A stretch of 64,000 nucleotides of DNA. Source: Escherichia coli O127:H6 str. E2348/69 (GTDB lineage: Bacteria; Pseudomonadota; Gammaproteobacteria; Enterobacterales; Enterobacteriaceae). The stretch is from NCBI RefSeq assembly GCF_000026545.1, contig NC_011601.1; one strand, given 5' to 3'. The position numbers were made by a program, and so were the translations under genes. Under the pieces are notes generated by a model that searched no databases, had not been told where the DNA came from, and was given only the letters and a program-made list of their open reading frames with translations. Below are positions 113 to 42,146 of this stretch, in pieces; position 1 is the stretch's first letter; every line of letters begins with the position of its first letter.

Positions 113-571
113 ATGGGGAACGAAAAGAGCTTAGCGCACACCCGATGGAACTGTAAATATCACATAGTATTTGCGCCAAAATACCGAAGACAGGTGTTCT
201 ACAGAGAGAAGCGTAGAGCAATAGGCTGTATTTTGAGAAAGCTGTGTGAGTGGAAAAGTGTACGGATTCTGGAAGCTGAATGCTGTGCAGATCATATCCA
301 TATGCTTGTGGAGATCCCGCCCAAAATGAGCGTATCCGGCTTTATGGGATATCTGAAAGGGAAAAGCAGTCTGATGCTTTACGAGCAGTTTGGTGATTTG
401 AAATTCAAGTACAGGAACAGGGAGTTCTGGTGCAGAGGGTATTACGTCGATACGGTGGGTAAGAACACGGCGAAGATACAGGATTACATAAAGCACCAGC
501 TTGAAGAGGATAAAATGGGAGAGCAGTTATCGATTCCCTATCCGGGCAGCCCGTTTACGGGCCGTAAGTAA
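113..571 (+). CDS. tnpA: IS200 transposase TnpA (Y1 HuH transposase), 152 aa
   Basis: Translation MGNEKSLAHTRWNCKYHIVFAPKYRR...HIHMLVEIPPK... closely matches Salmonella/E. coli IS200 TnpA as I recall it. The ATG at 113 gives the expected length. Confidence 0.9.
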   Translation: MGNEKSLAHTRWNCKYHIVFAPKYRRQVFYREKRRAIGCILRKLCEWKSVRILEAECCADHIHMLVEIPPKMSVSGFMGYLKGKSSLMLYEQFGDLKFKYRNREFWCRGYYVDTVGKNTAKIQDYIKHQLEEDKMGEQLSIPYPGSPFTGRK

Positions 572-652
572 CGAAGTTGGATGCAAATGTCAGATCGTGT
601 GCGCCTGTTAGGGCGCGGCTGGTAAGAGAGCCTTATAGGCGCATTTGAAAAA

Positions 653-671
653 CCTCCGGCTATGCCGGAGG
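653..671 (+). terminator. Perfect stem-loop (cctccggc-tat-gccggagg) downstream of tnpA, followed by an AT-rich tract; likely the IS200 3' structural hairpin
   Basis: 8-bp perfect inverted repeat with 3-nt loop read directly from the sequence. Confidence 0.45.
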
Positions 672-722
672 ATATTTATTGAATAATACTATTTCGACTG
701 AAATAACAGGTAAGGATACAAA

Positions 723-1151
723 ATGGGTTCATGGGGAATGGAGGCTCTCGAAAGCGACGAAGGGCTGGATTTGATTAATTGGGTAGAGGAACAACTGCAA
801 GATGATTCGACCTTTGATGCCGAGTCAATTGTTCAACGCTTAAGCCAGCATGAAGATTTGTTCGGATTTCAGGGAGATGAAGAATTTCTCTACGATAATA
901 ATGTTATCGGTCTCGTTGAACTTATCATTCAAAAAGCAGCCGGGAAAAAAATCACATCGAGTAAACAAATTGATCAACTCGACGGTTATCAGCTCACGTC
1001 GACTTTCAGCAAAAAACTCCAGGGCCGTTTACAAACAATCGACGACACACATGAGTGGATAATGCTTTTCGAGGGGCGAGCACGCGAAAAAGCAAAAGCA
1101 TATCTGATTGAGCTTACTGATAAATTAAGAGTAGTAAAGACAACAGCCTGA
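723..1151 (+). CDS. Small acidic hypothetical protein, 142 aa; N-terminus MGSWG resembles DUF4259-type proteins
   Basis: ORF with an AAGGA ribosome-binding site about 8 nt upstream and no homologue I can name with certainty. Family assignment is from memory of the MGxWG N-terminal signature. Confidence 0.55.
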   Translation: MGSWGMEALESDEGLDLINWVEEQLQDDSTFDAESIVQRLSQHEDLFGFQGDEEFLYDNNVIGLVELIIQKAAGKKITSSKQIDQLDGYQLTSTFSKKLQGRLQTIDDTHEWIMLFEGRAREKAKAYLIELTDKLRVVKTTA

Positions 1152-1242
1152 ATGACAAACAAGGGCGCGCAAAATTAAGAATCTGCGCCCTTTCAAAGCC
1201 CGACAGGCGTAGCGCATCAGGCGATTTAGCGTCTGCCATCAG

Positions 1243-1662
1243 TCAAAGAAACCATTCCGGCTTAACGCCAAATCGGGCTGAAAGTGCCTTAATGTGGGAT
1301 ATCGTCAGGGATCGTTGTCCAGATAAAATCTGACTGACCAGGGATTTAGAGCCGATTTCGTTCTTCAAATCCGCATAGGTCAGATTATGTTGATCAATCA
1401 GCGTACGAAGTAACGCCACGCCAACCGACATTGCTGCAACGGCTTTGTCGAACTCTGCAAACTTTTCGTTATTGTTTTCATATTCTGCAATGCGGCTCGC
1501 CAGAAAGTCGATAAGTGGATTGGTGTCATCTTCTTCAATCAAATATTCGACCAGTTCCAGTGCTTCACGATAATCATCTTCTGAGTCACTGCCTCCCAGA
1601 AAGGGGACTGCATTGACCAGTTCTCTTGTTGCTTTAACAGCGCGTGCAGCATTAGCAGTCAT
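1243..1662 (-). CDS. higA: HigA-family antitoxin (XRE-type HTH at C-terminus), 139 aa
   Basis: C-terminal GSKSLVSQILSGQRSLTISHIKALSARFGV matches the HigA/YgjM HTH. It overlaps the upstream toxin gene by 4 bp, the typical toxin-first higBA arrangement. Confidence 0.8.
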   Translation of the reverse strand: MTANAARAVKATRELVNAVPFLGGSDSEDDYREALELVEYLIEEDDTNPLIDFLASRIAEYENNNEKFAEFDKAVAAMSVGVALLRTLIDQHNLTYADLKNEIGSKSLVSQILSGQRSLTISHIKALSARFGVKPEWFL

Positions 1663-1970
1663 TCTTTGTTCTCTCTGTAGTAACGTGTCAGTTTGTCATA
1701 CTCTGCGTGATTCGTGATGTGCTTCACAAAGAACCGCTTATTAACAAAGTTTATGTAGGCAATAACCCTAAGATTGTTCCCGCCGACATCCAGAACGTAC
1801 CATTTGTTGCGATATTTAAAATTGTCGAGGTTGGGAAAAGCCGTTCGCATTTCTTCTGGCGTAGAAAAATCCGTTTCCTTAATAACCCGATACAATGAGT
1901 GTAGAGCCAGAGCGTCGTTAGGATATTTGCGCGCACACTCTTCAAATGGCGCTTTCGAAATGATGTGCAT
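1659..1970 (-). CDS. higB: HigB-family mRNA interferase toxin (RelE/ParE superfamily), 103 aa
   Basis: MHIISKAPFEECARKYP...FPNLDNFKYRNKWYVLDVGGNNLRVIAY... is similar to E. coli HigB (YgjN). The start was moved to the internal ATG, which has an AAGGAAG ribosome-binding site; the six-frame ORF is N-terminally extended. Confidence 0.8.
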   Translation of the reverse strand: MHIISKAPFEECARKYPNDALALHSLYRVIKETDFSTPEEMRTAFPNLDNFKYRNKWYVLDVGGNNLRVIAYINFVNKRFFVKHITNHAEYDKLTRYYRENKE

Positions 1971-3774: not shown

Positions 3775-4316
3775 CAGATGGCCTCTTTCATATGGCGAGT
3801 CAGTTCAATACGGTCGGACGGCACCAGGCATTTCTGGCGCTTACATTCCGGGCAAGTCTCAAAGCTTTCGCGGTGGTTTTCCGCGCGGCTGTCGCCATTG
3901 TGCTTAAGCAGCGCAATGGCGTAGTCGATCTCTTTCTGGACGGCGAAAGGACGATTGCAGACGCGGCAGTTGCACAGCGCGAAGCGGGACTGTTGCAGGA
4001 AGTCTTCTTTCTTCCACACCGCCAGTTCGTATTCTTGCGACAGCTTAATCGCCACCGTCGGACAGACTTCTTCACAGCGTCCACAGAAGATGCAGCGCCC
4101 GAGATTGAACTGCCACGCCAGCTCTCCTGTGGCGAGGTCAGTTTCAACCGTTAAGGCATTTGACGGGCAGGCATTGACGCAGGCCGCACAGCCTATGCAC
4201 TGCTGCGGGTTCTGCTCTGGCTTACCACGGAAGTTTTTATCAACCGCAATCGGCTCCAGCGGATAAGACGAAGTCGCCGTGCCGGTTTTGATGACTTTTT
4301 TGATAAAGGTAAACAT
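3774..4316 (-). CDS. hycF: Formate hydrogenlyase 4Fe-4S ferredoxin subunit HycF
   Basis: 180-aa ORF with two CxxCxxCxxxCP motifs. Confidence 0.95.
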
Positions 4317-10210: not shown

Positions 10211-10561
10211 ATGCACGAAATAACCCTCTGCCAACGGGCACTGGAATTGATCGAACAGCAGGCCGCAAAACACGGCGCAAAACGCGTAACTGGGGTCTGG
10301 CTCAAAATTGGCGCATTTTCTTGTGTCGAAACCAGCTCTCTTGCCTTTTGTTTTGATCTGGTTTGCCGCGGCAGCGTGGCGGAAGGTTGTAAACTGCACC
10401 TCGAAGAACAAGAGGCCGAATGCTGGTGTGAAACATGCCAACAGTATGTGACGCTACTGACCCAGCGCGTCCGCCGCTGTCCACAGTGTCATGGTGACAT
10501 GCTACAGATTGTGGCAGACGACGGTTTACAGATTCGGCGGATAGAAATAGACCAGGAGTGA
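10211..10561 (+). CDS. hypA: Hydrogenase nickel-incorporation protein HypA (116 aa)
   Basis: MHEITLCQRALELIEQQA... with zinc-finger CxxC motifs. Confidence 0.95.
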   Translation: MHEITLCQRALELIEQQAAKHGAKRVTGVWLKIGAFSCVETSSLAFCFDLVCRGSVAEGCKLHLEEQEAECWCETCQQYVTLLTQRVRRCPQCHGDMLQIVADDGLQIRRIEIDQE

Positions 10562-10564
10562 GCG

Positions 10565-11437
10565 ATGTGTACAACATGCGGTTGCGGTGAAGGCAACCTG
10601 TATATCGAGGGTGATGAACATAACCCTCATTCCGCGTTTCGTAGCGCGCCATTTGCCCCGGCGGCACGCCCGAAGATGAAAATCACCGGCATTAAAGCGC
10701 CTGAATTTACCCCCAGCCAGACTGAAGAAGGCGACCTGCATTACGGTCATGGCGAAGCGGGCACTCACGCGCCGGGCATGAGCCAGCGTCGGATGCTGGA
10801 AGTCGAAATTGACGTGCTGGACAAAAATAACCGTCTGGCTGAACGCAACCGCGCGCGCTTTGCTGCCCGCAAGCAACTGGTGCTCAACCTGGTTTCCAGC
10901 CCTGGTTCCGGTAAAACCACCCTGCTGACGGAAACTTTAATGCGCCTGAAAGACAGCGTTCCGTGCGCGGTTATTGAAGGTGACCAGCAAACCGTGAACG
11001 ATGCCGCACGCATTCGCGCTACCGGCACCCCAGCGATTCAGGTGAACACCGGTAAAGGCTGCCATCTTGACGCACAGATGATTGCCGACGCCGCGCCGCG
11101 CCTGCCACTGGACGATAACGGTATTCTGTTTATCGAAAACGTCGGTAACCTCGTTTGCCCGGCCAGCTTCGATCTCGGTGAAAAACACAAAGTGGCGGTG
11201 CTTTCCGTTACCGAAGGTGAAGACAAACCGCTGAAATATCCGCACATGTTTGCCGCCGCCTCGCTGATGCTGCTCAACAAAGTTGACTTGCTGCCGTATC
11301 TCAACTTTGACGTTGAGAAGTGCATCGCCTGCGCCCGCGAAGTCAATCCAGAAATTGAAATCATCCTTATTTCCGCCACCAGCGGCGAAGGGATGGACCA
11401 GTGGCTGAACTGGCTGGAGACACAGCGATGTGCATAG
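10565..11437 (+). CDS. hypB: Hydrogenase maturation GTPase / nickel-binding protein HypB
   Basis: 290 aa, N-terminal [10 protein letters not shown] metal-binding motif and GSGKTT P-loop. Confidence 0.95.
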
Positions 11438-11700
11438 GCGTTCCCGGCCAGATCCGCACCATTGACGGCAACCAGGCGAAAGTCGACGTCTGCGGCATTC
11501 AGCGCGATGTCGATTTAACGTTAGTCGGCAGCTGCGATGAAAACGGTCAGCCACGCGTGGGCCAGTGGGTACTGGTTCACGTTGGCTTTGCCATGAGCGT
11601 AATTAATGAAGCCGAAGCACGCGACACTCTCGACGCCTTACAAAACATGTTTGACGTTGAGCCAGATGTCGGCGCGCTGTTGTATGGCGAGGAAAAATAA
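11428..11700 (+). CDS. hypC: Hydrogenase maturation chaperone HypC (90 aa)
   Basis: Conserved [10 protein letters not shown]-terminus; start set at that ATG, not the upstream extension. Confidence 0.93.
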
Positions 11701-12821
11701 TGCGTTTTGTTGATGAATATCGCGCGCCGGAACAGGTGATGCAGTTAATTGAACATCTGCGCGAACGTGCTTCACATCTCTCTTACACCGCCGAACGCCC
11801 TCTGCGGATTATGGAAGTGTGTGGCGGTCATACCCACGCCATTTTTAAATTCGGCCTCGACCAGTTGCTGCCGGAAAACGTTGAGTTTATCCACGGTCCG
11901 GGTTGCCCGGTGTGCGTACTGCCGATGGGTAGAATCGACACCTGCGTGGAGATTGCCAGCCATCAGGAAGTCATCTTCTGTACCTTTGGCGATGCCATGC
12001 GCGTACCAGGGAAACAGGGGTCGCTGTTGCAGGCAAAAGCACGCGGTGCCGATGTGCGCATCGTTTACTCGCCAATGGATGCGTTAAAACTGGCGCAGGA
12101 GAATCCAACCCGTAAAGTGGTATTCTTCGGCTTAGGTTTTGAAACCACCATGCCGACCACCGCCATCACTCTGCAACAGGCGAAAGCCCGCGATGTGCAG
12201 AATTTTTACTTCTTCTGCCAGCACATTACGCTTATCCCGACGCTGCGCAGTTTGCTGGAACAGCCAGATAACGGTATCGACGCGTTCCTCGCGCCGGGCC
12301 ACGTCAGTATGGTTATCGGCACTGATGCCTATAATTTTATCGCCAGCGATTTTCATCGTCCGCTGGTGGTCGCTGGTTTCGAACCCCTTGATCTACTGCA
12401 AGGCGTGGTGATGCTGGTGGAGCAGAAAATAGCGGCCCATAGCAAGGTAGAGAATCAGTATCGTCGGGTGGTGCCGGATGCCGGTAACCTGCTGGCGCAA
12501 CAGGCAATTGCTGATGTGTTCTGTGTCAACGGCGACAGCGAATGGCGCGGCTTAGGCGTGATTGAATCTTCTGGCGTGCACCTGACGCCGGATTATCAAC
12601 GATTCGATGCCGAAGCACATTTCCGCCCGGCACCGCAGCAGGTCTGCGATGACCCGCGTGCGCGTTGTGGCGAAGTCTTGACGGGCAAATGTAAGCCGCA
12701 TCAATGCCCGCTGTTTGGTAACACCTGTAATCCTCAAACCGCGTTTGGTGCGCTGATGGTTTCCTCCGAAGGAGCGTGCGCCGCGTGGTATCAGTATCGT
12801 CAGCAGGAGAGTGAAGCGTGA
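11700..12821 (+). CDS. hypD: Hydrogenase maturation protein HypD
   Basis: 373 aa, with CGxH and GPGCPVC motifs. Confidence 0.95.
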   Translation: MRFVDEYRAPEQVMQLIEHLRERASHLSYTAERPLRIMEVCGGHTHAIFKFGLDQLLPENVEFIHGPGCPVCVLPMGRIDTCVEIASHQEVIFCTFGDAMRVPGKQGSLLQAKARGADVRIVYSPMDALKLAQENPTRKVVFFGLGFETTMPTTAITLQQAKARDVQNFYFFCQHITLIPTLRSLLEQPDNGIDAFLAPGHVSMVIGTDAYNFIASDFHRPLVVAGFEPLDLLQGVVMLVEQKIAAHSKVENQYRRVVPDAGNLLAQQAIADVFCVNGDSEWRGLGVIESSGVHLTPDYQRFDAEAHFRPAPQQVCDDPRARCGEVLTGKCKPHQCPLFGNTCNPQTAFGALMVSSEGACAAWYQYRQQESEA

Positions 12822-13828
12822 ATAATATCCAACTCGCCCACGGTAGCGGCGGCCAGGCGATGCAGCAATTAATCAACAGCCTGTTTATGGAAGCCTTTGC
12901 CAACCCGTGGCTGGCAGAGCAGGAAGATCAGGCCCGTCTTGATTTGGCACAGCTGGTAGCGGAAGGCGACCGTCTGGCGTTCTCCACCGACAGTTACGTC
13001 ATTGACCCGCTGTTCTTTCCTGGCGGTAATATCGGCAAGCTGGCGATTTGCGGCACCGCCAATGACGTTGCGGTCAGTGGCGCAATTCCGCGCTATCTCT
13101 CCTGTGGCTTTATCCTCGAAGAAGGATTGCCGATGGAGACACTAAAAGCCGTAGTGACCAGCATGGCAGAAACCGCCCGCGCGGCAGGCATTGCCATCGT
13201 TACTGGCGATACCAAAGTGGTACAGCGCGGCGCGGCAGATAAACTGTTTATCAACACCGCTGGCATGGGCGCAATTCCGGCGAATATTCACTGGGGCGCA
13301 CAGACGCTAACCGCAGGCGATGTATTGCTGGTTAGCGGTACACTCGGCGACCATGGGGCGACTATCCTTAACCTGCGTGAGCAACTAGGGCTGGATGGCG
13401 AACTGGTCAGCGACTGCGCGGTGCTGACGCCGCTTATTCAGACGCTGCGTGACATTCCCGGCGTGAAAGCGCTGCGTGATGCCACCCGTGGTGGTGTAAA
13501 CGCGGTGGTTCATGAGTTCGCGGCAGCCTGCGGTTGTGGTATTGAACTTTCAGAAGCGGCACTGCCGGTTAAACCTGCTGTGCGCGGCGTTTGCGAACTG
13601 CTGGGACTGGACGCCCTTAACTTTGCCAACGAAGGCAAACTGGTGATCGCCGTTGAACGCAACGCAGCAGAGCAAGTGCTGGCGGCGTTACATTCCCATC
13701 CATTGGGAAAAGATGCGGCGCTGATTGGCGAAGTAGTAGAACGTAAAGGTGTTCGTCTTGCCGGTCTGTATGGCGTGAAACGAACCCTCGATCTACCGCA
13801 CGCCGAACCGCTTCCGCGTATATGCTAA
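12818..13828 (+). CDS. hypE: Hydrogenase maturation carbamoyl dehydratase HypE
   Basis: 336 aa, PurM-like; C-terminal PRIC cysteine. Confidence 0.95.
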   Translation: MNNIQLAHGSGGQAMQQLINSLFMEAFANPWLAEQEDQARLDLAQLVAEGDRLAFSTDSYVIDPLFFPGGNIGKLAICGTANDVAVSGAIPRYLSCGFILEEGLPMETLKAVVTSMAETARAAGIAIVTGDTKVVQRGAADKLFINTAGMGAIPANIHWGAQTLTAGDVLLVSGTLGDHGATILNLREQLGLDGELVSDCAVLTPLIQTLRDIPGVKALRDATRGGVNAVVHEFAAACGCGIELSEAALPVKPAVRGVCELLGLDALNFANEGKLVIAVERNAAEQVLAALHSHPLGKDAALIGEVVERKGVRLAGLYGVKRTLDLPHAEPLPRIC

Positions 13829-13901
13829 TAAAATTCTAAATCTCCTATAGTTAGTCAATGACCTTTTGCACCGCTTTGCGGTGCTTTCCTGGAAGAACAA
13901 A

Positions 13902-15980
13902 ATGTCATATACACCGATGAGTGATCTCGGACAGCAAGGGTTGTTCGACATCACTCGGACACTATTGCAGCAGCCCGATCTGGCCTCGCTGTGTGAGGCT
14001 CTTTCGCAACTGGTAAAGCGTTCTGCGCTCGCCGACAACGCGGCTATTGTGTTGTGGCAAGCGCAGACTCAACGTGCGTCTTATTACGCATCGCGTGAAA
14101 AAGACACCCCCATTAAATATGAAGACGAAACTGTTCTGGCACACGGTCCGGTACGCAGCATTTTGTCGCGCCCTGATACGCTGCATTGCAGTTACGAAGA
14201 ATTTTGTGAAACCTGGCCGCAGCTGGCCACAGGTGGGCTATACCCCAAATTTGGTCACTATTGCCTGATGCCACTGGCGGCGGAAGGGCATATTTTTGGT
14301 GGCTGTGAATTTATTCGTTATGACGATCGCCCCTGGAGCGAAAAAGAGTTCAATCGTCTGCAAACATTTACGCAGATCGTTTCTGTCGTCACCGAACAAA
14401 TCCAGAGCCGCGTCGTTAACAATGTCGACTATGAGTTGTTATGCCGGGAACGCGATAACTTCCGCATCCTGGTCGCCATCACTAACGCGGTGCTTTCCCG
14501 CCTGGATATGGACGAACTGGTCAGCGAAGTCGCCAAAGAAATCCATTACTATTTCGACATTGACGATATCAGCATCGTCTTACGCAGCCACCGTAAAAAC
14601 AAACTCAACATCTACTCCACTCACTATCTTGATAAACAGCATCCCGCTCACGAACAGAGCGAAGTCGATGAAGCCGGAACCCTCACCGAACGCGTCTTCA
14701 AAAGTAAAGAGATGCTGTTGATTAATCTCCACGAGCGGGACGATTTAGCCCCCTATGAACGCATGTTGTTCAACACCTGGGGCAACCAGATTCAAACCTT
14801 GTGCCTGTTACCGCTGATGTCTGGCGACACCATGCTGGGCGTGCTAAAACTGGCGCAATGCGAAGAGAAAGTCTTTACCACTACCAATCTGAATTTACTG
14901 CGCCAGATTGCCGAACGTGTGGCAATCGCTGTCGATAACGCCCTCGCCTATCAGGAAATTCATCGTCTGAAAGAACGGCTGGTTGATGAAAACCTCGCCC
15001 TGACCGAGCAGCTCAACAATGTTGATAGTGAATTTGGCGAGATTATTGGCCGCAGCGAAGCCATGTACAGCGTACTTAAACAAGTGGAAATGGTGGCGCA
15101 AAGTGACAGTACCGTTCTGATCCTCGGTGAAACTGGTACAGGTAAAGAGCTGATTGCCCGCGCGATCCATAATCTCAGTGGGCGTAATAATCGCCGCATG
15201 GTCAAAATGAACTGCGCGGCGATGCCTGCCGGATTGCTGGAGAGCGATCTATTTGGTCATGAGCGCGGGGCTTTTACCGGTGCCAGCGCTCAGCGCATTG
15301 GTCGTTTTGAACTGGCGAATAAAAGCTCACTATTCCTCGATGAAGTGGGCGATATGCCGCTGGAGTTACAGCCGAAGTTGCTGCGTGTATTACAGGAACA
15401 GGAGTTTGAACGTCTCGGCAGCAACAAAATCATTCAGACGGACGTACGTTTAATTGCCGCGACTAACCGCGATCTGAAAAAAATGGTCGCCGACCGAGAG
15501 TTCCGTAGCGATCTCTATTACCGTCTGAACGTATTCCCGATCCACCTGCCGCCACTACGCGAGCGTCCGGAAGATATTCCGCTGCTGGCGAAAGCCTTTA
15601 CCTTCAAAATTGCCCGTCGTCTGGGGCGCAATATCGACAGCATTCCTGCCGAGACGCTGCGCATCCTGAGCAACATGGAATGGCCGGGCAACGTGCGTGA
15701 GCTGGAAAACGTCATTGAGCGCGCGGTATTGCTAACACGCGGCAACGTGCTGCAGCTGTCATTGCCAGATATTGCTTTACCAAAACCTGAAACGCCGCCT
15801 GCCGCAACGGTTGTCGCCCAGGAGGGCGAAGATGAATATCAGTTGATTGTTCGCGTGCTGAAAGAAACAAACGGCGTGGTTGCCGGGCCTAAAGGCGCTG
15901 CGCAACGTCTGGGGCTGAAACGCACGACTCTGCTGTCACGGATGAAGCGACTGGGAATTGATAAATCGGCATTGATTTAA
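13902..15980 (+). CDS. fhlA: Formate hydrogenlyase transcriptional activator FhlA (sigma54-dependent, 692 aa)
   Basis: MSYTPMSDLGQQGLFDITRT..., GAF domains, AAA+ GETGTGKE and GAFTGA motifs, C-terminal HTH. Confidence 0.95.
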   Translation: MSYTPMSDLGQQGLFDITRTLLQQPDLASLCEALSQLVKRSALADNAAIVLWQAQTQRASYYASREKDTPIKYEDETVLAHGPVRSILSRPDTLHCSYEEFCETWPQLATGGLYPKFGHYCLMPLAAEGHIFGGCEFIRYDDRPWSEKEFNRLQTFTQIVSVVTEQIQSRVVNNVDYELLCRERDNFRILVAITNAVLSRLDMDELVSEVAKEIHYYFDIDDISIVLRSHRKNKLNIYSTHYLDKQHPAHEQSEVDEAGTLTERVFKSKEMLLINLHERDDLAPYERMLFNTWGNQIQTLCLLPLMSGDTMLGVLKLAQCEEKVFTTTNLNLLRQIAERVAIAVDNALAYQEIHRLKERLVDENLALTEQLNNVDSEFGEIIGRSEAMYSVLKQVEMVAQSDSTVLILGETGTGKELIARAIHNLSGRNNRRMVKMNCAAMPAGLLESDLFGHERGAFTGASAQRIGRFELANKSSLFLDEVGDMPLELQPKLLRVLQEQEFERLGSNKIIQTDVRLIAATNRDLKKMVADREFRSDLYYRLNVFPIHLPPLRERPEDIPLLAKAFTFKIARRLGRNIDSIPAETLRILSNMEWPGNVRELENVIERAVLLTRGNVLQLSLPDIALPKPETPPAATVVAQEGEDEYQLIVRVLKETNGVVAGPKGAAQRLGLKRTTLLSRMKRLGIDKSALI

Positions 15981-16024
15981 CAGATGTGGTTATACTCGAT
16001 CAACATTCAATGAAAGGAGGCAGT

Positions 16025-16453
16025 ATGGCAGTTTCAGCAAGAAATCAATTAACCGGAACAGTTAGCGCAGTAGCAATGGGCGCTGTGAATGATGAAGTAG
16101 AACTGACGCTGGCAGGTGGTGCAAAGCTGGTGGCAATTGTGACTCACAGCAGCCAGCAAGCGCTGGGTCTGGCGAAAGGGAAAGAAGCGATTGCCCTGAT
16201 TAAAGCCCCGTGGGTAACGCTGGCAACGGAAGACTGTGGACTGAAATTCTCTGCTCGCAACCAGTTTGCTGGCAGCGTGTCGACAATCACCGAAGGCGCA
16301 GTGAACGCCACTGTCCATATCAAAACGGATGCGGGTTTTGAAATTGTGGCAGTGGTAACAAATGAAAGTCAGGATGAAATGAAACTCACCACTGGCTCGC
16401 GCGTTATTGCATTGATCAAAGCATCAGCCATCCTGATTGCCACCAAAGCGTAA
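16025..16453 (+). CDS. Molybdate-binding di-TOBE (Mop-like) protein, 142 aa
   Basis: Two tandem TOBE repeats, each starting SARNQ(L/F)xGxV. AAAGGAGG ribosome-binding site 6 nt upstream; starts 44 bp after the fhlA stop. Confidence 0.8.
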   Translation: MAVSARNQLTGTVSAVAMGAVNDEVELTLAGGAKLVAIVTHSSQQALGLAKGKEAIALIKAPWVTLATEDCGLKFSARNQFAGSVSTITEGAVNATVHIKTDAGFEIVAVVTNESQDEMKLTTGSRVIALIKASAILIATKA

Positions 16454-16464
16454 GCGCCGTATTT

Positions 16465-16487
16465 GCCGGAGAGTATGGCTCTCCGGC
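16465..16487. terminator. Bidirectional intrinsic terminator between the mop-like gene and ygbA
   Basis: 9-bp stem gccggagag / ctctccggc with 5-nt loop, T-rich tract downstream on the plus strand. Confidence 0.55.
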
Positions 16488-16491
16488 AGAT

Positions 16492-16836
16492 TTATTTCTT
16501 TGGACGATATTTTTCTGGCAACTCCGGCACCGGACGCTTGTCATCGATGAGATGACGCACGGTTAAGATCGGATGACGCCACAGCATTCTCGGCCCGGCC
16601 CAACGCATAATCTGTTTCATCTCTTCACGCTTTGCAGGCTGGTAACAGTGCACCGGACACTGCTTACAGGCTGGTTTCTCTTCGCCGAACACACATTTAT
16701 CCAGCCGCTTTTGCGCGTAAGCAAACAACGCCTCGTAATGCTCCGGCTCTGCTGACGCCTGCGGGCATTTCGCTTGATAAAGATCGATCATTTTTTTAAT
16801 CGTCAGTTTTTCACGAGAGATACGCTTGCCGGACAT
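16492..16836 (-). CDS. ygbA: Nitrous-oxide-stimulated promoter family protein YgbA
   Basis: 114-aa ORF with CxxC motifs, divergent from mutS as in E. coli. Confidence 0.85.
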   Translation of the reverse strand: MSGKRISREKLTIKKMIDLYQAKCPQASAEPEHYEALFAYAQKRLDKCVFGEEKPACKQCPVHCYQPAKREEMKQIMRWAGPRMLWRHPILTVRHLIDDKRPVPELPEKYRPKK

Positions 16837-16852
16837 GCTGCCTCCATACTCT

Positions 16853-16875
16853 AAGGTGCATTTATATTACAACTT
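16853..16875. promoter_or_regulatory. Candidate NsrR operator upstream of ygbA
   Basis: aaggtgcatttatattacaactt resembles the NsrR consensus (AAnATGCATTT...AAATnCATnTT); ygbA is a known NsrR regulon member. Confidence 0.3.
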
Positions 16876-17120
16876 AACTTTAAAGGGGACTATGGCTCTG
16901 AAGGAGGAGGTTTCTTCAACCGACGAATTTTGCAATCTTGTTTCATCGTCATCACGCAAAAGCTGTAAAGCAGCATTTTTCGCGGAACCGACATCAAGAA
17001 CTCACCTTTCGCGTCTTCCCCTGAAATGATTAACTCCGGTATCATGTGCGCCTTATGTGATTACAACGAAAATAAAAACCATCACACTACATTTAACATC
17101 AGGGAGCCGGACTTAACCCC

Positions 17121-19682
17121 ATGAGTACAATAGAAAATTTCGACGCCCATACGCCCATGATGCAGCAGTATCTCAAGCTGAAAGCCCAGCATCCCGAGAT
17201 CCTGCTGTTTTACCGGATGGGCGACTTTTATGAACTGTTTTATGACGACGCAAAACGGGCGTCGCAACTGCTGGATATTTCACTGACCAAACGCGGTGCT
17301 TCAGCGGGAGAGCCAATCCCGATGGCGGGGATTCCCTACCATGCGGTGGAAAACTACCTCGCCAAACTGGTGAATCAGGGCGAATCCGTCGCTATTTGTG
17401 AACAGATTGGCGATCCGGCGACCAGCAAAGGGCCGGTTGAGCGCAAAGTTGTCCGTATCGTTACGCCGGGCACCATCAGCGATGAAGCGCTGTTGCAGGA
17501 ACGTCAGGACAACCTGCTGGCGGCTATCTGGCAGGACAGTAAAGGTTTCGGCTACGCAACGCTGGATATCAGTTCCGGTCGTTTTCGCCTGAGCGAACCG
17601 GCAGACCGCGAAACGATGGCGGCAGAACTGCAACGTACGAATCCAGCGGAATTACTGTATGCGGAAGATTTCGCCGAGATGTCGCTGATTGAAGGTCGCC
17701 GCGGCCTGCGTCGTCGCCCGCTGTGGGAGTTTGAAATCGACACCGCTCGCCAGCAATTGAACCTGCAATTTGGCACTCGCGATCTGGTCGGTTTTGGTGT
17801 GGAGAACGCACCACGCGGACTTTGTGCTGCCGGTTGTCTGTTGCAGTATGCGAAAGATACCCAACGCACGACCCTGCCGCATATTCGTTCTATCACTATG
17901 GAACGTCAGCAGGACAGCATCATTATGGATGCCGCGACGCGTCGTAACCTGGAAATTACTCAGAACCTGGCCGGCGGTGCGGAAAATACGCTGACCTCAG
18001 TGCTCGACTGCACTGTAACGCCGATGGGTAGTCGTATGCTGAAACGCTGGCTGCATATGCCAGTGCGCGATACCCGCGTGTTGCTTGAGCGCCAGCAAAC
18101 TATTGGCGCATTGCAGGATTTCACCGCCGAGCTACAGCCGGTACTGCGTCAGGTCGGCGACCTGGAACGTATTCTGGCGCGTCTGGCGTTGCGTACCGCT
18201 CGCCCACGCGATCTGGCCCGTATGCGTCACGCTTTCCAGCAACTGCCGGAGTTGCGTGCGCAGTTAGAAAATGTCGATAGTGCACCGGTACAAGCGCTGC
18301 GTGAGAAGATGGGCGAGTTTGCCGAACTGCGCGACCTGCTGGAGCGAGCAATCATCGACACGCCGCCGGTGCTGGTACGCGATGGTGGTGTTATTGCGAC
18401 TGGTTATAACGAAGAACTGGATGAATGGCGTGCGCTGGCCGACGGCGCGACCGATTATCTGGAACGTCTGGAAGTCCGCGAGCGTGAACGTACCGGCCTG
18501 GACACGCTGAAAGTTGGCTTTAATGCGGTGCACGGCTACTACATTCAAATCAGCCGTGGGCAAAGCCATCTGGCACCAATCAACTACATGCGTCGCCAGA
18601 CGCTGAAAAACGCCGAGCGCTACATCATTCCAGAGCTAAAAGAGTACGAAGATAAAGTTCTCACCTCAAAAGGCAAAGCACTGGCTCTGGAAAAACAACT
18701 TTATGAAGAGCTGTTCGACCTGCTGTTGCCGCATCTGGAAGCGTTGCAACAGAGCGCGAGCGCGCTGGCGGAACTCGACGTGCTGGTGAACCTGGCGGAG
18801 CGGGCCTATACCCTGAACTACACCTGCCCGACCTTTATTGATAAACCTGGCATTCGCATTACCGAAGGTCGCCATCCGGTAGTTGAACAAGTACTGAATG
18901 AGCCGTTTATCGCTAACCCGCTGAACCTGTCGCCGCAGCGTCGCATGTTGATCATTACCGGTCCGAACATGGGAGGTAAAAGTACCTATATGCGCCAGAC
19001 CGCGTTGATTGCGCTGATGGCGTATATCGGCAGCTACGTACCGGCGCAAAAAGTCGAGATTGGCCCGATTGACCGTATCTTTACCCGCGTAGGTGCCGCG
19101 GATGATCTGGCTTCCGGGCGTTCAACCTTTATGGTGGAGATGACCGAAACCGCCAATATTTTACATAACGCCACCGAATACAGTCTGGTGTTGATGGACG
19201 AGATCGGGCGTGGAACGTCCACTTACGATGGTCTGTCGCTGGCGTGGGCATGCGCGGAAAATCTGGCAAATAAGATCAAAGCGTTGACGCTGTTTGCTAC
19301 CCACTATTTCGAGCTGACCCAGTTACCGGAGAAAATGGAAGGCGTCGCCAACGTGCATCTCGATGCACTGGAGCACGGCGACACCATTGCCTTTATGCAT
19401 AGCGTGCAGGATGGCGCAGCGAGCAAAAGCTACGGCCTGGCGGTTGCAGCTCTGGCGGGTGTGCCAAAAGAGGTTATTAAGCGCGCACGGCAAAAACTGC
19501 GTGAGCTGGAAAGCATTTCGCCGAACGCCGCTGCTACGCAAGTGGATGGTACACAAATGTCTTTGCTGTCCGTACCGGAAGAAACTTCGCCTGCGGTCGA
19601 GGCACTGGAAAACCTCGACCCGGATTCATTGACTCCGCGTCAGGCGCTGGAGTGGATTTATCGCTTGAAGAGTCTGGTGTAA
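17121..19682 (+). CDS. mutS: DNA mismatch repair protein MutS (853 aa)
   Basis: Full-length [40 protein letters not shown]... including Walker [10 protein letters not shown]. Confidence 0.98.
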
Positions 19683-40651: not shown

Positions 40652-40657
40652 TGGTGG

Positions 40658-40809
40658 CTACTTCTTCGATTCGTAAGCGAGAACTGCCTTAAACTCCATA
40701 CCACGTTCTCTGATACTCAACTCACACAACGAGTCGCCTACCATCAACGTGAATCCCAGTACTGTACAACACAGTACGATGATTGCCACAAGGGCATATT
40801 TTGTCAGCA
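40658..40809 (-). pseudogene. hok: hok-family (HokE-like) type I toxin gene, inactivated by a 1-nt deletion
   Basis: Minus-strand translation [23 protein letters not shown] then a stop, followed out of frame by [26 protein letters not shown], which matches the Hok/Gef family (Hok[15 protein letters not shown]...LVGDSLCEF...[12 protein letters not shown], from memory). Restoring one G in 'atg(g)tagg' gives an intact 50-aa ORF. Confidence 0.7.
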
Positions 40810-40828
40810 TGTCTGTGTAAGTTCACAG

Positions 40829-41900
40829 AGATATTGCAATTGCCTCCGGATAAGTAAGGGGAGATTGCACTATGCAAATGCAGCATCTGATGGTTGGCTA
40901 TCCTAAGTACTACCAAACGGCCGATTATGCGTTGAGGCTTTCAGTGATGGCTGATATAGCAACAATGAGAATGAAGGCTCTGCACTTCTGGGATAAACAC
41001 GGTATTTCTGCAGCTTCTGAAGCCTTTGGCGTGTCCTGCCGCACGCTTTACTGGTGGCGTCAGTTACTGAACAAGGAAGGACCTGAGGGGCTAATCCCGC
41101 ACAGTAAGGCACCTCTGGTGCGACGAAAAAAACACTGGCATCCCGATGTGCTGAAAGAGATTCGACGCCTCAGGACAGAGCTGCCGAACCTCGGTAAAGA
41201 GCAGATTTTTGTTCGCCTGAAGCCCTGGTGCGAACAGCGCTATCTGGCCTGTCCGAGTGTTTCCACCATCGGCAGAATGATCGCTGCCGCACATGATAAA
41301 ATGCGGATGATACCTGTGCGTCTGGGATCGCGGGGGAAGGCACTGCTTGTCAAAAAGCGGTCTGCCAAACCCCGCAGGCCAAAGCACTACCGCCCGGTAA
41401 AGACAGGTGAGCTCATTGGGATGGACGCCATTGAGCTCAGAATGGGCGAACTGCGTCGCTATGTCATCACCATGATCGACGAATGCAGCAATTACGCGCT
41501 GGCGCTGGCTGTGCCGTCACTCAACAGTGATATCGTCAATCACTTCTTCAGCCGCGCAGCCCGGTTGTTCCCGGTCGGTATCAGCCAGATAATCACAGAT
41601 AACGGAAAAGAGTTCCTGGGAAACTTCGACAAAACGCTGCAGGAAGCCGCTATCAAACACCTCTGGACCTATCCCTACACGCCAAAAATGAACGCTATCT
41701 GTGAACGTTTTAACCGGACGTTAAGAGAGCAGTTTATTGAATTTAATGAGATTTTACTCTTTGAAGATCTGGCGCTATTTAACCAGAAGCTGGCGGAATA
41801 TCTGGTGCTGTATAACAGCAAAAGACCCCACAAGGCGCTCGCACTAATGACGCCCGTGGAATATATTTTAAAAGAGAATAAAAATTGCAATATGTGGTGG
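40829..41900 (+). mobile_element. Approximate extent of an IS481-family-like insertion sequence; boundaries tentative
   Basis: Single DDE (rve) transposase ORF. Candidate terminal inverted repeats 'atattgcaatt' at the left (about 40829) and its reverse complement within 'aaaaattgcaatatg' at about 41886-41900. No clean target-site duplication was found. Confidence 0.4.
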
Positions 41901-42146
41901 ACCCATACAATGTCTTGCCTCCTTGCAAAGAAGAGACTAACATCCGAATTGCTTAGGTTCGAACGTAGGCCTCAGGTTGATAGAAATATCGCCTGGGGCT
42001 TTTGTCCATCTGGAACCTCGCGAATGCTTAACGCCAGACAGCCTCAAGCACCCAACGCCATTCTATACCTGTTAATTTTCCCTGCGATGTTCACCTTTAA
42101 ATGCCGGAATGCTGCTCGCAAAATAAAAACGCCCCATCATTTCTGA
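40872..42146 (+). CDS. DDE-type (rve/integrase core) transposase with N-terminal HTH, IS481-family-like
   Basis: HTH (ISAASEAFGVSCRTLYWWRQ), DDE residues in GMDAIE / ITDNGKEF / ERFNRTLRE, and C-terminal KRPHKALALMTPVEY. The last ~80 codons of the 424-aa ORF may be read-through into flanking DNA. Confidence 0.7.
   Translation: MQMQHLMVGYPKYYQTADYALRLSVMADIATMRMKALHFWDKHGISAASEAFGVSCRTLYWWRQLLNKEGPEGLIPHSKAPLVRRKKHWHPDVLKEIRRLRTELPNLGKEQIFVRLKPWCEQRYLACPSVSTIGRMIAAAHDKMRMIPVRLGSRGKALLVKKRSAKPRRPKHYRPVKTGELIGMDAIELRMGELRRYVITMIDECSNYALALAVPSLNSDIVNHFFSRAARLFPVGISQIITDNGKEFLGNFDKTLQEAAIKHLWTYPYTPKMNAICERFNRTLREQFIEFNEILLFEDLALFNQKLAEYLVLYNSKRPHKALALMTPVEYILKENKNCNMWWTHTMSCLLAKKRLTSELLRFERRPQVDRNIAWGFCPSGTSRMLNARQPQAPNAILYLLIFPAMFTFKCRNAARKIKTPHHF

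What the first reader, a model, noticed from the sequence alone, without database searches (positions are those of the whole stretch)
16025..16453. Di-TOBE molybdate-binding (Mop-like) gene immediately after fhlA
A 142-aa ORF with two tandem TOBE domains and a strong ribosome-binding site starts 44 bp after the fhlA stop and is followed by a terminator, so it is probably co-transcribed with fhlA. I do not recall an annotated gene between fhlA and ygbA in K-12. The placement makes sense functionally: formate hydrogenlyase needs the molybdo-selenoenzyme FdhH, and hyc/fdhF expression is known to respond to molybdate. A small molybdate-binding protein encoded with the FHL activator could buffer or sense molybdate for this regulon.
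Basis: partly seen in the sequence, partly recalled or inferred. Interest (0 to 1): 0.6.

Follow-up and report, generated by a model that had tools for sequence, protein, structure and literature searches.

The report
ModG-type molybdate-binding gene after fhlA
A small, already annotated but unstudied gene just after the formate-hydrogenlyase activator gene fhlA encodes a two-domain molybdate-binding protein like Azotobacter ModG; it is ancestral in enteric bacteria and was lost from E. coli K-12 by one old deletion.

Summary
Window 16025-16453 (+) in E. coli E2348/69 is a 142-aa gene that starts 44 nt after the fhlA stop. It has an AAGGAGG ribosome-binding site and is followed by a 14-bp hairpin terminator.

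The protein has two TOBE/Mop domains. It is 48% identical over its full length to the Azotobacter vinelandii molybdate-binding protein ModG, and the AF2 model matches ModG with TM 0.95. Both domains keep every oxyanion-contact position.

RefSeq already annotates it as "TOBE domain-containing protein". I found no functional study of it.

The gene is under strong purifying selection (dN/dS 0.03-0.09) and is always 142 aa. It sits in the order hypE-fhlA-gene in Escherichia, Citrobacter, Klebsiella, Raoultella, Kluyvera, Pluralibacter, Yokenella, Lelliottia and Kosakonia, so it is ancestral there.

Of 5426 complete E. coli genomes, 1892 carry it and 3501 share one identical deletion scar, including K-12 and O157:H7.

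The most likely function is a cytoplasmic molybdate/tungstate buffer made with the hydrogenase-maturation/fhlA operon. A regulatory role is possible but unsupported. The gene survives where fhlA is gone, and it may have its own promoter.

Verdict: a new member of a known kind, of moderate interest.

The parts
10211..13828 (+). hypABCDE, the hydrogenase maturation genes upstream in the same orientation
   Evidence: RefSeq annotation of E2348/69 mapped to window coordinates; hypE ORF 12818-13828.
13902..15980 (+). fhlA, the sigma-54 activator of formate hydrogenlyase genes (mislabelled 'flhA' by PGAP)
   Evidence: Annotation; ORF; stop codon at 15978-15980.
15981..16024 (+). 44-nt fhlA-gene spacer with no terminator
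   Evidence: Sequence. The scan finds no terminator and no full sigma-70 promoter here. The spacer is 100% identical among four E. coli lineages whose fhlA differs by 2-4%.
15991..15996 (+). -10-like hexamer TATACT (possible own promoter; no -35 partner)
   Evidence: TATACT, TATAAA, TATAAC or TATAAG lies exactly 34 nt before the ATG in Escherichia, Citrobacter, Pseudocitrobacter, Pluralibacter and three unnamed Enterobacteriaceae. It lies 43-49 nt before the ATG in Klebsiella, Raoultella, Kluyvera, Yokenella, E. soli and Lelliottia. Its function is not tested.
16014..16020 (+). Ribosome-binding site AAGGAGG
   Evidence: Sequence. GGAG(G) is kept before the ATG in all orthologous loci.
16025..16453 (+). 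ModG-type di-Mop (di-TOBE) protein gene: 142 aa, 14.5 kDa, WP_000301062.1
   Evidence: dN/dS is 0.03-0.09. GC is 50.6%, like its neighbours.
16034..16222 (+). TOBE/Mop domain 1 (residues 4-66), with oxyanion-contact positions S4, R6, A20-V21-N22, T40, K60, A61
   Evidence: Pfam. In register with the Tub ligand residues listed in PMC11980592 section 7. Invariant or nearly invariant in alignment A2.
16250..16435 (+). TOBE/Mop domain 2 (residues 76-137), with S76, R78, A92-V93-N94, T112, K132, A133
   Evidence: Pfam; alignment to Tub and ModG; alignment A2. The second domain of ModE lacks these residues.
16461..16491 (.). Hairpin terminator shared by the convergent di-Mop gene and ygbA
   Evidence: 14-pair stem followed by a T-run. 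The same hairpin follows fhlA directly in K-12, with compensatory stem changes: CCGGAGAG/CTCTCCGG versus CCGGACAG/CTGTCCGG.
16492..16836 (-). ygbA, the convergent neighbour (not part of the unit; marks the right boundary)
   Evidence: Annotation; ORF.

Best explanation
The gene encodes a cytoplasmic 'molbindin' of the ModG type: two tandem Mop/TOBE domains and nothing else. By homology it should assemble like ModG, a trimer that mimics a Mop hexamer. It should bind several molybdate or tungstate oxyanions at subunit interfaces and on the symmetry axis. It would thereby store or buffer intracellular molybdate.

In Enterobacteriaceae the gene sits at the 3' end of the hypABCDE-fhlA unit. It would therefore be made when the cell builds formate hydrogenlyase, whose FdhH subunit needs a molybdenum cofactor. 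That would raise the cytoplasmic molybdate reserve at that moment.

What is shown: domain content, fold, conserved ligand positions, purifying selection, conserved synteny, and loss by a single deletion in most E. coli.

What is inferred: oxyanion binding, oligomeric state, co-expression with fhlA, and the physiological role.
For: Identity of the protein:
- Two PF03459 domains and TIGR00638 at 142 bits.
- The best solved relative is A. vinelandii ModG, at E 5e-33 over residues 1-140.
- The AF2 model has pLDDT 96.4. It superposes on ModG 1h9j with TM 0.95, rmsd 1.3 A and 48% identity. The next matches are the ModE di-Mop domains at TM 0.89.
- All positions that contact tungstate in Tub are present in both domains: type-1 A20, V21, N22; type-2 S4, R6, S40, K60, A61 (PMC11980592). 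The only change is S40 to T, as in ModG and ModE. These positions are invariant or nearly so in 25 orthologues.

It is a real gene:
- All 45 orthologues are 142 aa and start with ATG.
- dN/dS is 0.03-0.09.
- Within E. coli, one allele has 13 nucleotide differences and no amino-acid difference.

Link to hyp-fhlA:
- hypE-fhlA-gene is adjacent in 35 of 46 loci from the species scan.
- There is no terminator in the 44-nt gap.
- The K-12 fhlA terminator is the same hairpin that follows this gene in E2348/69.

Background:
- ModG binds eight molybdates per trimer and serves Mo homeostasis (PMC11980592).
- Mop of R. capsulatus is listed as molybdate storage (PMC6925177).
- FHL synthesis depends on molybdate (PMC3149613).
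Against: - Nothing here measures binding, oligomer state or expression.
- A linked-trimer AF2 run was uninformative, with pLDDT 52 and pTM 0.31.
- The gene persists intact where fhlA is absent from the locus. Examples are Phytobacter and Kosakonia S29 (hypE-gene), and Raoultella BIGb0138 and Enterobacter BIGb0383 (ascB-gene). It also persists in unrelated contexts in Serratia, Cedecea, Edwardsiella and Salmonella. Its role is therefore not tied strictly to FhlA or FHL.
- About 65% of E. coli, including K-12 with a fully functional FHL, do without it. Any benefit is conditional.
- A conserved -10-like box, and a terminator-like hairpin in Lelliottia, suggest it may be transcribed on its own.
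- Unlike A. vinelandii modG, there are no mod genes beside it, and no ModE-box-like site with at most 1 mismatch near it.
Confidence: 0.6

Rival explanations
1. The protein is a molybdate sensor or co-regulator rather than a store. Once loaded with molybdate, it would interact with FhlA, or with ModE through di-Mop/di-Mop contacts, to tune hyc, hyp and fdhF transcription to molybdenum supply. This would be an extra regulatory layer that K-12 has lost.
For: The position directly behind the fhlA activator gene is conserved over at least nine genera. hyc and fdhF expression in K-12 is known to need molybdate, through ModE and a MoeA-dependent route (PMC3149613 citing Hasona 1998 and Self 1999). 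The protein is the same module that ModE uses as its sensor, with TM 0.89 to the ModE di-Mop domain.
Against: There is no DNA-binding or other output domain. It is closer to the storage protein ModG than to ModE: 117 versus 61 bits, and TM 0.95 versus 0.89. It keeps the A-V-N loops of the axial (type-1) sites in both domains. Dimeric ModE lacks these, which points to a ModG-like multimer. It is retained under selection in genomes where fhlA is no longer adjacent or the whole hyc-hyp-fhlA block is deleted. K-12 regulates FHL by molybdate without it. No interaction was tested.
Confidence: 0.15
2. Its main job is to sequester tungstate or another tetrahedral oxyanion. That would protect molybdoenzyme maturation from the antagonist. 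It would be a detoxifying sink rather than a molybdenum reserve.
For: Mop, ModG, ModE and Tub sites bind tungstate as well as molybdate. Tungstate complexes exist for the ModE di-Mop domain (1h9r), MopII (1gug) and Tub (9beb). Tub binds both oxyanions comparably in vitro (PMC11980592).
Against: Sequence cannot separate Mo from W preference. There is no tup (tungstate transport) gene or tungstoenzyme gene near the locus. The conserved neighbours serve a molybdoenzyme complex.
Confidence: 0.1
3. It is a decaying remnant, for example a fragment copy of the modE C-terminus or a recently transferred accessory gene, with no current function in E. coli.
For: It is missing from about 65% of E. coli, including all laboratory strains, with no known defect. 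The Salmonella copy lies next to an IS21 remnant.
Against: dN/dS is 0.03-0.09. Length is fixed at 142 aa in 45 loci. Ligand positions are intact. E. coli alleles differ by 3-5% at the nucleotide level, like the flanking fhlA, yet encode identical or nearly identical proteins. GC content is native. The chromosomal position is the same in E. albertii, Citrobacter, Klebsiella and others. Similarity to ModG is far stronger than to E. coli ModE.
Confidence: 0.02

Closest known systems
ModG of Azotobacter vinelandii (PDB 1h9j, 1h9k, 1h9m), a cytoplasmic di-Mop molybdate-binding protein
   Same: Same length class (142 versus about 141-145 aa). Same architecture of two Mop/TOBE domains only. 48% identity over the whole chain, E 5e-33, TM 0.95, rmsd 1.3 A. 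Both domains keep the SARN, GAVN, T and KA ligand positions.
   Different: Genomic setting and probable regulation differ. modG belongs to the mod locus and is ModE-controlled, and it serves nitrogenase-related Mo homeostasis (title of Mouncey 1996 as cited in PMC9542535; PMC11980592). The enterobacterial gene follows hypABCDE-fhlA, has no mod neighbours and has no ModE-box-like site nearby. Binding stoichiometry and trimer formation are not shown for it.
C-terminal di-Mop domain of E. coli ModE (PDB 1b9m, 1o7l, 1h9r, 1h9s)
   Same: Same tandem TOBE fold (TM 0.89, 34-36% identity). Domain 1 shares the S-R...T...K-A molybdate ligands.
   Different: ModE has an N-terminal DNA-binding domain and is a dimeric regulator. 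Its second Mop domain has lost the ligand residues (NADN, GAEQ, P, NA), and neither domain has the A-V-N axial-site loop. The protein here has no DNA-binding domain and keeps both ligand sets.
Single-domain molbindins: Mop/MopII (Clostridium pasteurianum 1gug; Sporomusa ovata 1fr3), Tub of Eubacterium limosum (9beb), Mop of Rhodobacter capsulatus
   Same: Each half of the protein aligns in exact register with Tub and Mop (E about 1e-9 to 1e-10, 40% identity). All type-1 and type-2 ligand positions are kept.
   Different: Those are chains of about 70 aa that form hexamers. Here two such domains are fused in one chain, as in ModG.
C-terminal TOBE domain of ModC/WtpC ABC-transporter ATPases (e.g. 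3d31)
   Same: Related TOBE fold and weak profile hits.
   Different: There is no ATPase domain. Similarity is much weaker (TM 0.71, 20% identity). In ModC the domain mediates trans-inhibition of transport.

Membership tests
ModG-type di-Mop molbindins | The protein consists of two tandem Mop/TOBE (PF03459, TIGR00638) domains and no other domain | tested here: met
   Pfam residues 4-66 and 76-137. TIGR00638 scores 142 bits against a cutoff of 55, in two stretches. 142 aa in total.
ModG-type di-Mop molbindins | Full-length sequence and fold similarity to ModG | tested here: met
   phmmer E 5e-33 over residues 1-140. AF2 pLDDT 96.4. Foldseek TM 0.95, rmsd 1.3 A, 48% identity to 1h9j.
ModG-type di-Mop molbindins | Interface (type-2) oxyanion ligands in both domains (Ser, Arg, Ser/Thr, Lys, Ala) | tested here: met
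   Domain 1 has S4, R6, T40, K60, A61. Domain 2 has S76, R78, T112, K132, A133. They are aligned in register with the Tub residues named in PMC11980592 and conserved in alignment A2.
ModG-type di-Mop molbindins | Axial (type-1) site loop A-V-N in both domains | tested here: met
   A20-V21-N22 and A92-V93-N94. They are nearly invariant in orthologues and absent from ModE.
ModG-type di-Mop molbindins | Trimeric assembly binding about eight molybdates | tested here: inconclusive
   An AF2 run on three copies joined by Gly-Ser linkers gave pLDDT 52 and pTM 0.31, which says nothing either way. It needs SEC-MALS or crystallography.
ModG-type di-Mop molbindins | Measured binding of molybdate or tungstate | not testable with these tools
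   It requires purified protein (ITC or fluorescence).
ModG-type di-Mop molbindins | Linkage to mod genes and ModE control. This is a feature of the A. vinelandii system, not of the protein family itself. | tested here: not met
   The neighbours are hyp, fhlA, ygbA and mutS. TATAT-N7-TAYAT with at most 1 mismatch has 5 window hits, none within 2.5 kb of the gene, against 2.9 expected by chance.
ModE transcription factors | [quoted passage not shown] | tested here: not met
   The protein aligns only to ModE residues about 124-261 (NF007957: 88 bits against a cutoff of 369). No sequence precedes Mop domain 1.
ModC/WtpC ABC ATPases | ABC ATPase domain N-terminal to a single TOBE domain | tested here: not met
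   Only the last 60-70 residues of the ModC and WtpC profiles match, and scores are far below the cutoffs.

The most novel reading that the evidence does not exclude
The di-Mop protein is a dedicated molybdenum-status signal for the formate hydrogenlyase regulon. Loaded with molybdate, it would act on FhlA or on ModE so that hyc, hyp and fdhF are induced only when FdhH can be matured. On this reading, everything learned about molybdate control of FHL comes from a lineage (K-12) that lost this ancestral component by deletion.
Probability: 0.12. Interest if true: 0.7.

Novelty: new member of a known kind. Interest (0 to 1): 0.35.

Why it matters
Molybdenum handling and formate hydrogenlyase regulation in enteric bacteria have been worked out almost entirely in E. 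coli K-12. This analysis shows that K-12, like about 65% of E. coli, carries one shared deletion. That deletion removed an ancestral, strongly conserved cytoplasmic molybdate-binding protein gene from the end of the hyp-fhlA unit.

Phylogroup B2 and F strains keep the gene. Examples are E2348/69, APEC O18, IAI39 and CE10. So do E. albertii, Citrobacter, Klebsiella, Raoultella, Kluyvera and others. These organisms may therefore differ from K-12 in molybdenum quota, in molybdoenzyme activity under molybdate limitation, and in sensitivity to tungstate.

The natural presence/absence polymorphism offers ready-made isogenic-style comparisons. If the protein only buffers molybdate, this is a routine extension of the ModG family to enteric bacteria.

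Tried and rejected
1. Literature. Eight full-text searches found no paper on this enterobacterial gene. Terms covered fhlA, TOBE, molybdenum-pterin binding, ModG, molbindin, mopII and 'TOBE domain-containing protein'. Two searches were badly designed and returned noise. The TOBE hit in a STEC proteomics paper was an author's surname. The original ModG genetics paper is not held.

2. ModE box. TATAT-N7-TAYAT with at most 1 mismatch has no site near the gene. By eye, the spacer gives 8/10 matches in Citrobacter only and is not conserved. I rejected it as a ModE site.

3. Sigma-54 and FNR sites in the spacer. Checked by eye against the consensus, with no convincing match.

4. Full sigma-70 promoter. 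The scan finds none. Only a -10-like hexamer is conserved. I left this as a possibility.

5. Trimer modelling. Three Gly-Ser-linked copies gave a low-confidence model, which is uninformative.

6. Rfam. No RNA family matches in 13000-18000 at E up to 1.

7. Horizontal acquisition from B2. Rejected, because non-B2 alleles are 3-5% divergent, like their flanks, and GC content is native.

8. Full phylogroup cross-tabulation. Only named reference strains could be placed.

9. Salmonella. I expected the fhlA-adjacent position, but the copy examined lies elsewhere.

Full report
**What is in the sequence**

- The window is E. coli E2348/69 (100% identity to NZ_CP059840.2).
- At 16025-16453 on the + strand there is an ATG-initiated ORF of 142 codons.
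- The fhlA stop codon is at 15978-15980, which leaves a 44-nt spacer.
- AAGGAGG lies at 16014-16020, 4 nt before the ATG.
- A hairpin with a 14-bp stem followed by TTATTTCTTT lies at 16461-16491. It abuts the stop codon of the convergent ygbA gene.
- No terminator and no complete sigma-70 promoter is found in the spacer.
- The mechanical ORF list extends the frame to a GTG at 15986 (155 aa), and a few database entries use that start.
- Three things support the ATG at 16025: the ribosome-binding site, the fact that all 45 orthologues examined begin MxVSARNQ at the equivalent ATG, and exact register with the N-termini of ModG and Tub.

**What the protein is**

- Pfam finds two TOBE domains, at residues 4-66 (1.6e-17) and 76-137 (6.2e-16), and nothing else.
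- NCBIfam TIGR00638, the 'molybdenum-pterin binding domain', scores 142 bits against a cutoff of 55. The ModE, ModC and WtpC models match only through their TOBE parts and fall far below their cutoffs.
- Among solved structures, the best relative is the cytoplasmic molybdate-binding protein ModG of Azotobacter vinelandii, at E 5e-33 over residues 1-140. The di-Mop domain of E. coli ModE comes next at E 1e-15. The single-domain proteins Tub, MopII and Mop follow.
- An AlphaFold2 model built on 27 sequences has mean pLDDT 96.4. It superposes on ModG 1h9j with TM 0.95, rmsd 1.3 A and 48% identity. ModE di-Mop domains give TM 0.89.

**Ligand positions**

- The tungstate-bound structure of Tub defines two kinds of site (PMC11980592).
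  - Axial (type-1) sites are made by the backbone of A20, V21 and N22.
  - Interface (type-2) sites are made by S4, R6, K60 and A61 of one chain and S40 of the next.
- Each half of the E. coli protein aligns with Tub without gaps in this region.
  - Domain 1 has S4, R6, A20-V21-N22, T40, K60, A61.
  - Domain 2 has S76, R78, A92-V93-N94, T112, K132, A133.
- These positions are invariant or nearly invariant in an alignment of 25 orthologues plus ModG.
- The second Mop domain of ModE, which does not bind molybdate, has lost them.
- The protein therefore has the full ModG complement of sites by sequence. Actual binding, stoichiometry and oligomer state are inferred, not shown.
- An attempt to model a Gly-Ser-linked trimer gave an uninformative low-confidence result, with pLDDT 52 and pTM 0.31.

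**It is a real, selected gene and is already annotated**

- RefSeq calls it 'TOBE domain-containing protein' (WP_000301062.1) or 'molybdopterin-binding protein'. Its 90% cluster has about 1000 member sequences.
- All 45 orthologues recovered are exactly 142 aa.
- Pairwise dN/dS against E2348/69 is 0.03-0.09 from E. albertii out to Cedecea.
- Within E. coli, an allele with 13 nucleotide differences encodes an identical protein.
- GC content is 50.6%, which matches the neighbourhood.

**Distribution and history**

- In a one-genome-per-species scan, the gene follows fhlA directly, with hypE upstream, in many genera. These are Escherichia (E. albertii and a cryptic-clade strain), Citrobacter, Pseudocitrobacter, Klebsiella, Raoultella, Kluyvera, Pluralibacter, Yokenella, Enterobacter soli, Lelliottia and Kosakonia. 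That placement is therefore ancestral for the core Enterobacteriaceae.
- Among 5426 complete E. coli genomes, 1892 carry the gene, always once and always on the chromosome.
- A 60-nt probe across the K-12 fhlA/ygbA junction is found in 3501 genomes, of which 3380 match at 99% identity or more.
- The two states together account for 99.4% of genomes.
- K-12 TG1, O157:H7 and two other strains have the identical junction TTTAACTGCAAATTGCCGG. The absence therefore stems from one deletion of about 465 bp. It removed the gene and its spacer and left the terminator, which in K-12 follows fhlA directly.
- Carriers include E2348/69 and APEC O18 (B2 by my own knowledge), and IAI39 and CE10 (phylogroup F by my own knowledge).
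- Non-carriers include K-12 derivatives, a BL21 derivative and O157:H7.
- Non-B2 alleles differ from the B2 allele by 3-5% at the nucleotide level, like the adjacent fhlA. The gene was therefore kept vertically, not recently imported.
The ORF is not overlooked in K-12; the DNA is gone.

**Operon or own promoter?**

- In E. coli, read-through from fhlA is the simplest expectation. There is no terminator in the gap, and the K-12 fhlA terminator is the hairpin that follows this gene.
- By established knowledge, hypBCDE-fhlA is transcribed from an FhlA/sigma-54 promoter before hypA and from an FNR-dependent promoter inside hypA. The gene would then be formate- and anaerobiosis-induced.
- However, a -10-like hexamer (TATACT, TATAAA, TATAAC or TATAAG) lies exactly 34 nt before the ATG in several genera whose spacers otherwise differ. 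It lies 43-49 nt before the ATG in others. It has no recognisable -35 partner.
- Lelliottia has a terminator-like hairpin between fhlA and the gene.
- In Raoultella sp. BIGb0138, the hyc-hyp-fhlA block is deleted, but about 60 nt of the fhlA 3' end remain in front of the gene.
- Independent transcription is therefore a live possibility. Neither mode is tested.

**Function**

- The best-supported reading is a ModG-like cytoplasmic molybdate/tungstate buffer. ModG binds eight molybdates per trimer and contributes to Mo homeostasis (PMC11980592). R. capsulatus Mop is treated as molybdate storage (PMC6925177).
- Placement behind hyp-fhlA fits a demand peak for molybdenum when FdhH is made. FHL synthesis in E. 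coli depends on molybdate and ModE (PMC3149613).
This cannot be excluded, but several observations weaken it.
  - The protein is closer to ModG than to ModE.
  - It keeps the axial-site loops that dimeric ModE lacks.
  - It has no output domain.
  - It stays intact where fhlA is not adjacent: Phytobacter and Kosakonia S29, Raoultella BIGb0138 and Enterobacter BIGb0383, and Serratia, Cedecea, Edwardsiella and Salmonella.
- It also differs from A. vinelandii modG in having no mod neighbours and no ModE-box-like site nearby.

**Comparison and verdict**

- The protein meets every sequence- and fold-level criterion of the ModG/di-Mop molbindin family. It fails the criteria for ModE (no DNA-binding domain) and ModC (no ATPase domain).
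- What is new is the setting, not the kind. It is a conserved attachment to the hydrogenase-maturation/fhlA unit in enteric bacteria, together with a clean two-allele polymorphism in E. coli that removed it from all the laboratory strains seen here.
- A recent survey catalogues the TudG/ModG architecture in gut genomes in bulk, with 5379 proteins, and its species tables include Enterobacteriaceae.
- I found no study of this gene or of its link to fhlA in the searchable literature.
- I rate it a new member of a known kind, with moderate interest.

Noticed in passing
window 13902-15980 (and all E. coli RefSeq records seen): PGAP gives the formate hydrogenlyase activator gene the symbol 'flhA' and the product name 'FlhA'. 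This collides with the flagellar export gene flhA; the accepted name is fhlA.
   Followed up: no
window 113-1970: Downstream of hycI lie an IS200C transposase gene, a DUF4259 gene and a HigB-family toxin / HTH antitoxin pair. In other Enterobacteriaceae the asc genes lie on that side of the hyc block (L014, L030).
   Followed up: no
window 40657-41905: Between cysH and iap there is an integrase-core pseudogene and a Hok/Gef toxin gene. From my own knowledge, K-12 carries its type I-E CRISPR-Cas locus at this position, so this strain appears to lack it.
   Followed up: no
window 26533-29354: The mutS-rpoS interval holds a MarR-family regulator and hydroxyarylic acid decarboxylase subunits B, C and D. 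From my own knowledge, this interval is variable among E. coli.
   Followed up: no
window 16461-16491 versus L002 1784-1810: The terminator stems of the gene-present and deletion alleles differ by compensatory changes: CCGGAGAG/CTCTCCGG versus CCGGACAG/CTGTCCGG. The sequence to the right of the K-12 junction resembles the post-gene hairpin of Citrobacter amalonaticus more than that of E2348/69.
   Followed up: partly
L035, L040, L047, about 3930-3960: In Phytobacter and Kosakonia sp. S29, fhlA is absent between hypE and the di-Mop gene. A perfect palindrome, ATACCCAT-N9-ATGGGTAT, lies about 60 nt before the ATG and could be an operator.
   Followed up: no
L014 (Raoultella sp. BIGb0138) and L030 (Enterobacter sp. 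BIGb0383): The hyc-hyp-fhlA block is missing, so ascB is followed by the di-Mop gene. L014 keeps about 60 nt of the fhlA 3' end and has sitABCD-like Mn/Fe transporter genes between the di-Mop gene and ygbA. L030 has a HigB/HigA-like toxin-antitoxin pair inserted upstream.
   Followed up: partly
L052, L053 (Salmonella enterica): The Salmonella copy is 89% identical but is not next to fhlA. It lies beside an IS21 IstB remnant (in L053), YedYZ-like genes (Oxidored_molyb plus Ni_hydr_CYTB), a TetR regulator and a fimbrial usher. This suggests relocation or transfer.
   Followed up: partly
L055 (E. coli AHM8C160RI) and L061 (E. coli E26): In AHM8C160RI, fhlA is annotated as frameshifted while the di-Mop gene is intact, and an ISEc46 TnpA/TnpB element sits after ygbA. 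In E26, an IS26 copy and a GmrSD gene replace everything to the left of ygbA.
   Followed up: no
L033 3914-3935 (Lelliottia sp.): A terminator-like hairpin with 9 pairs and a T-rich tail lies between the fhlA stop and the di-Mop gene. In this genus the gene probably needs its own promoter.
   Followed up: partly
L056 (E. coli strain 48, deer): This strain encodes the same FhlA protein (WP_001301446.1) as O157:H7 and has a mutS 5' region 99.7% identical to that of K-12, yet it carries the di-Mop gene. The presence/absence boundary therefore does not follow the flanking haplotypes simply, which suggests recombination at this locus.
   Followed up: partly
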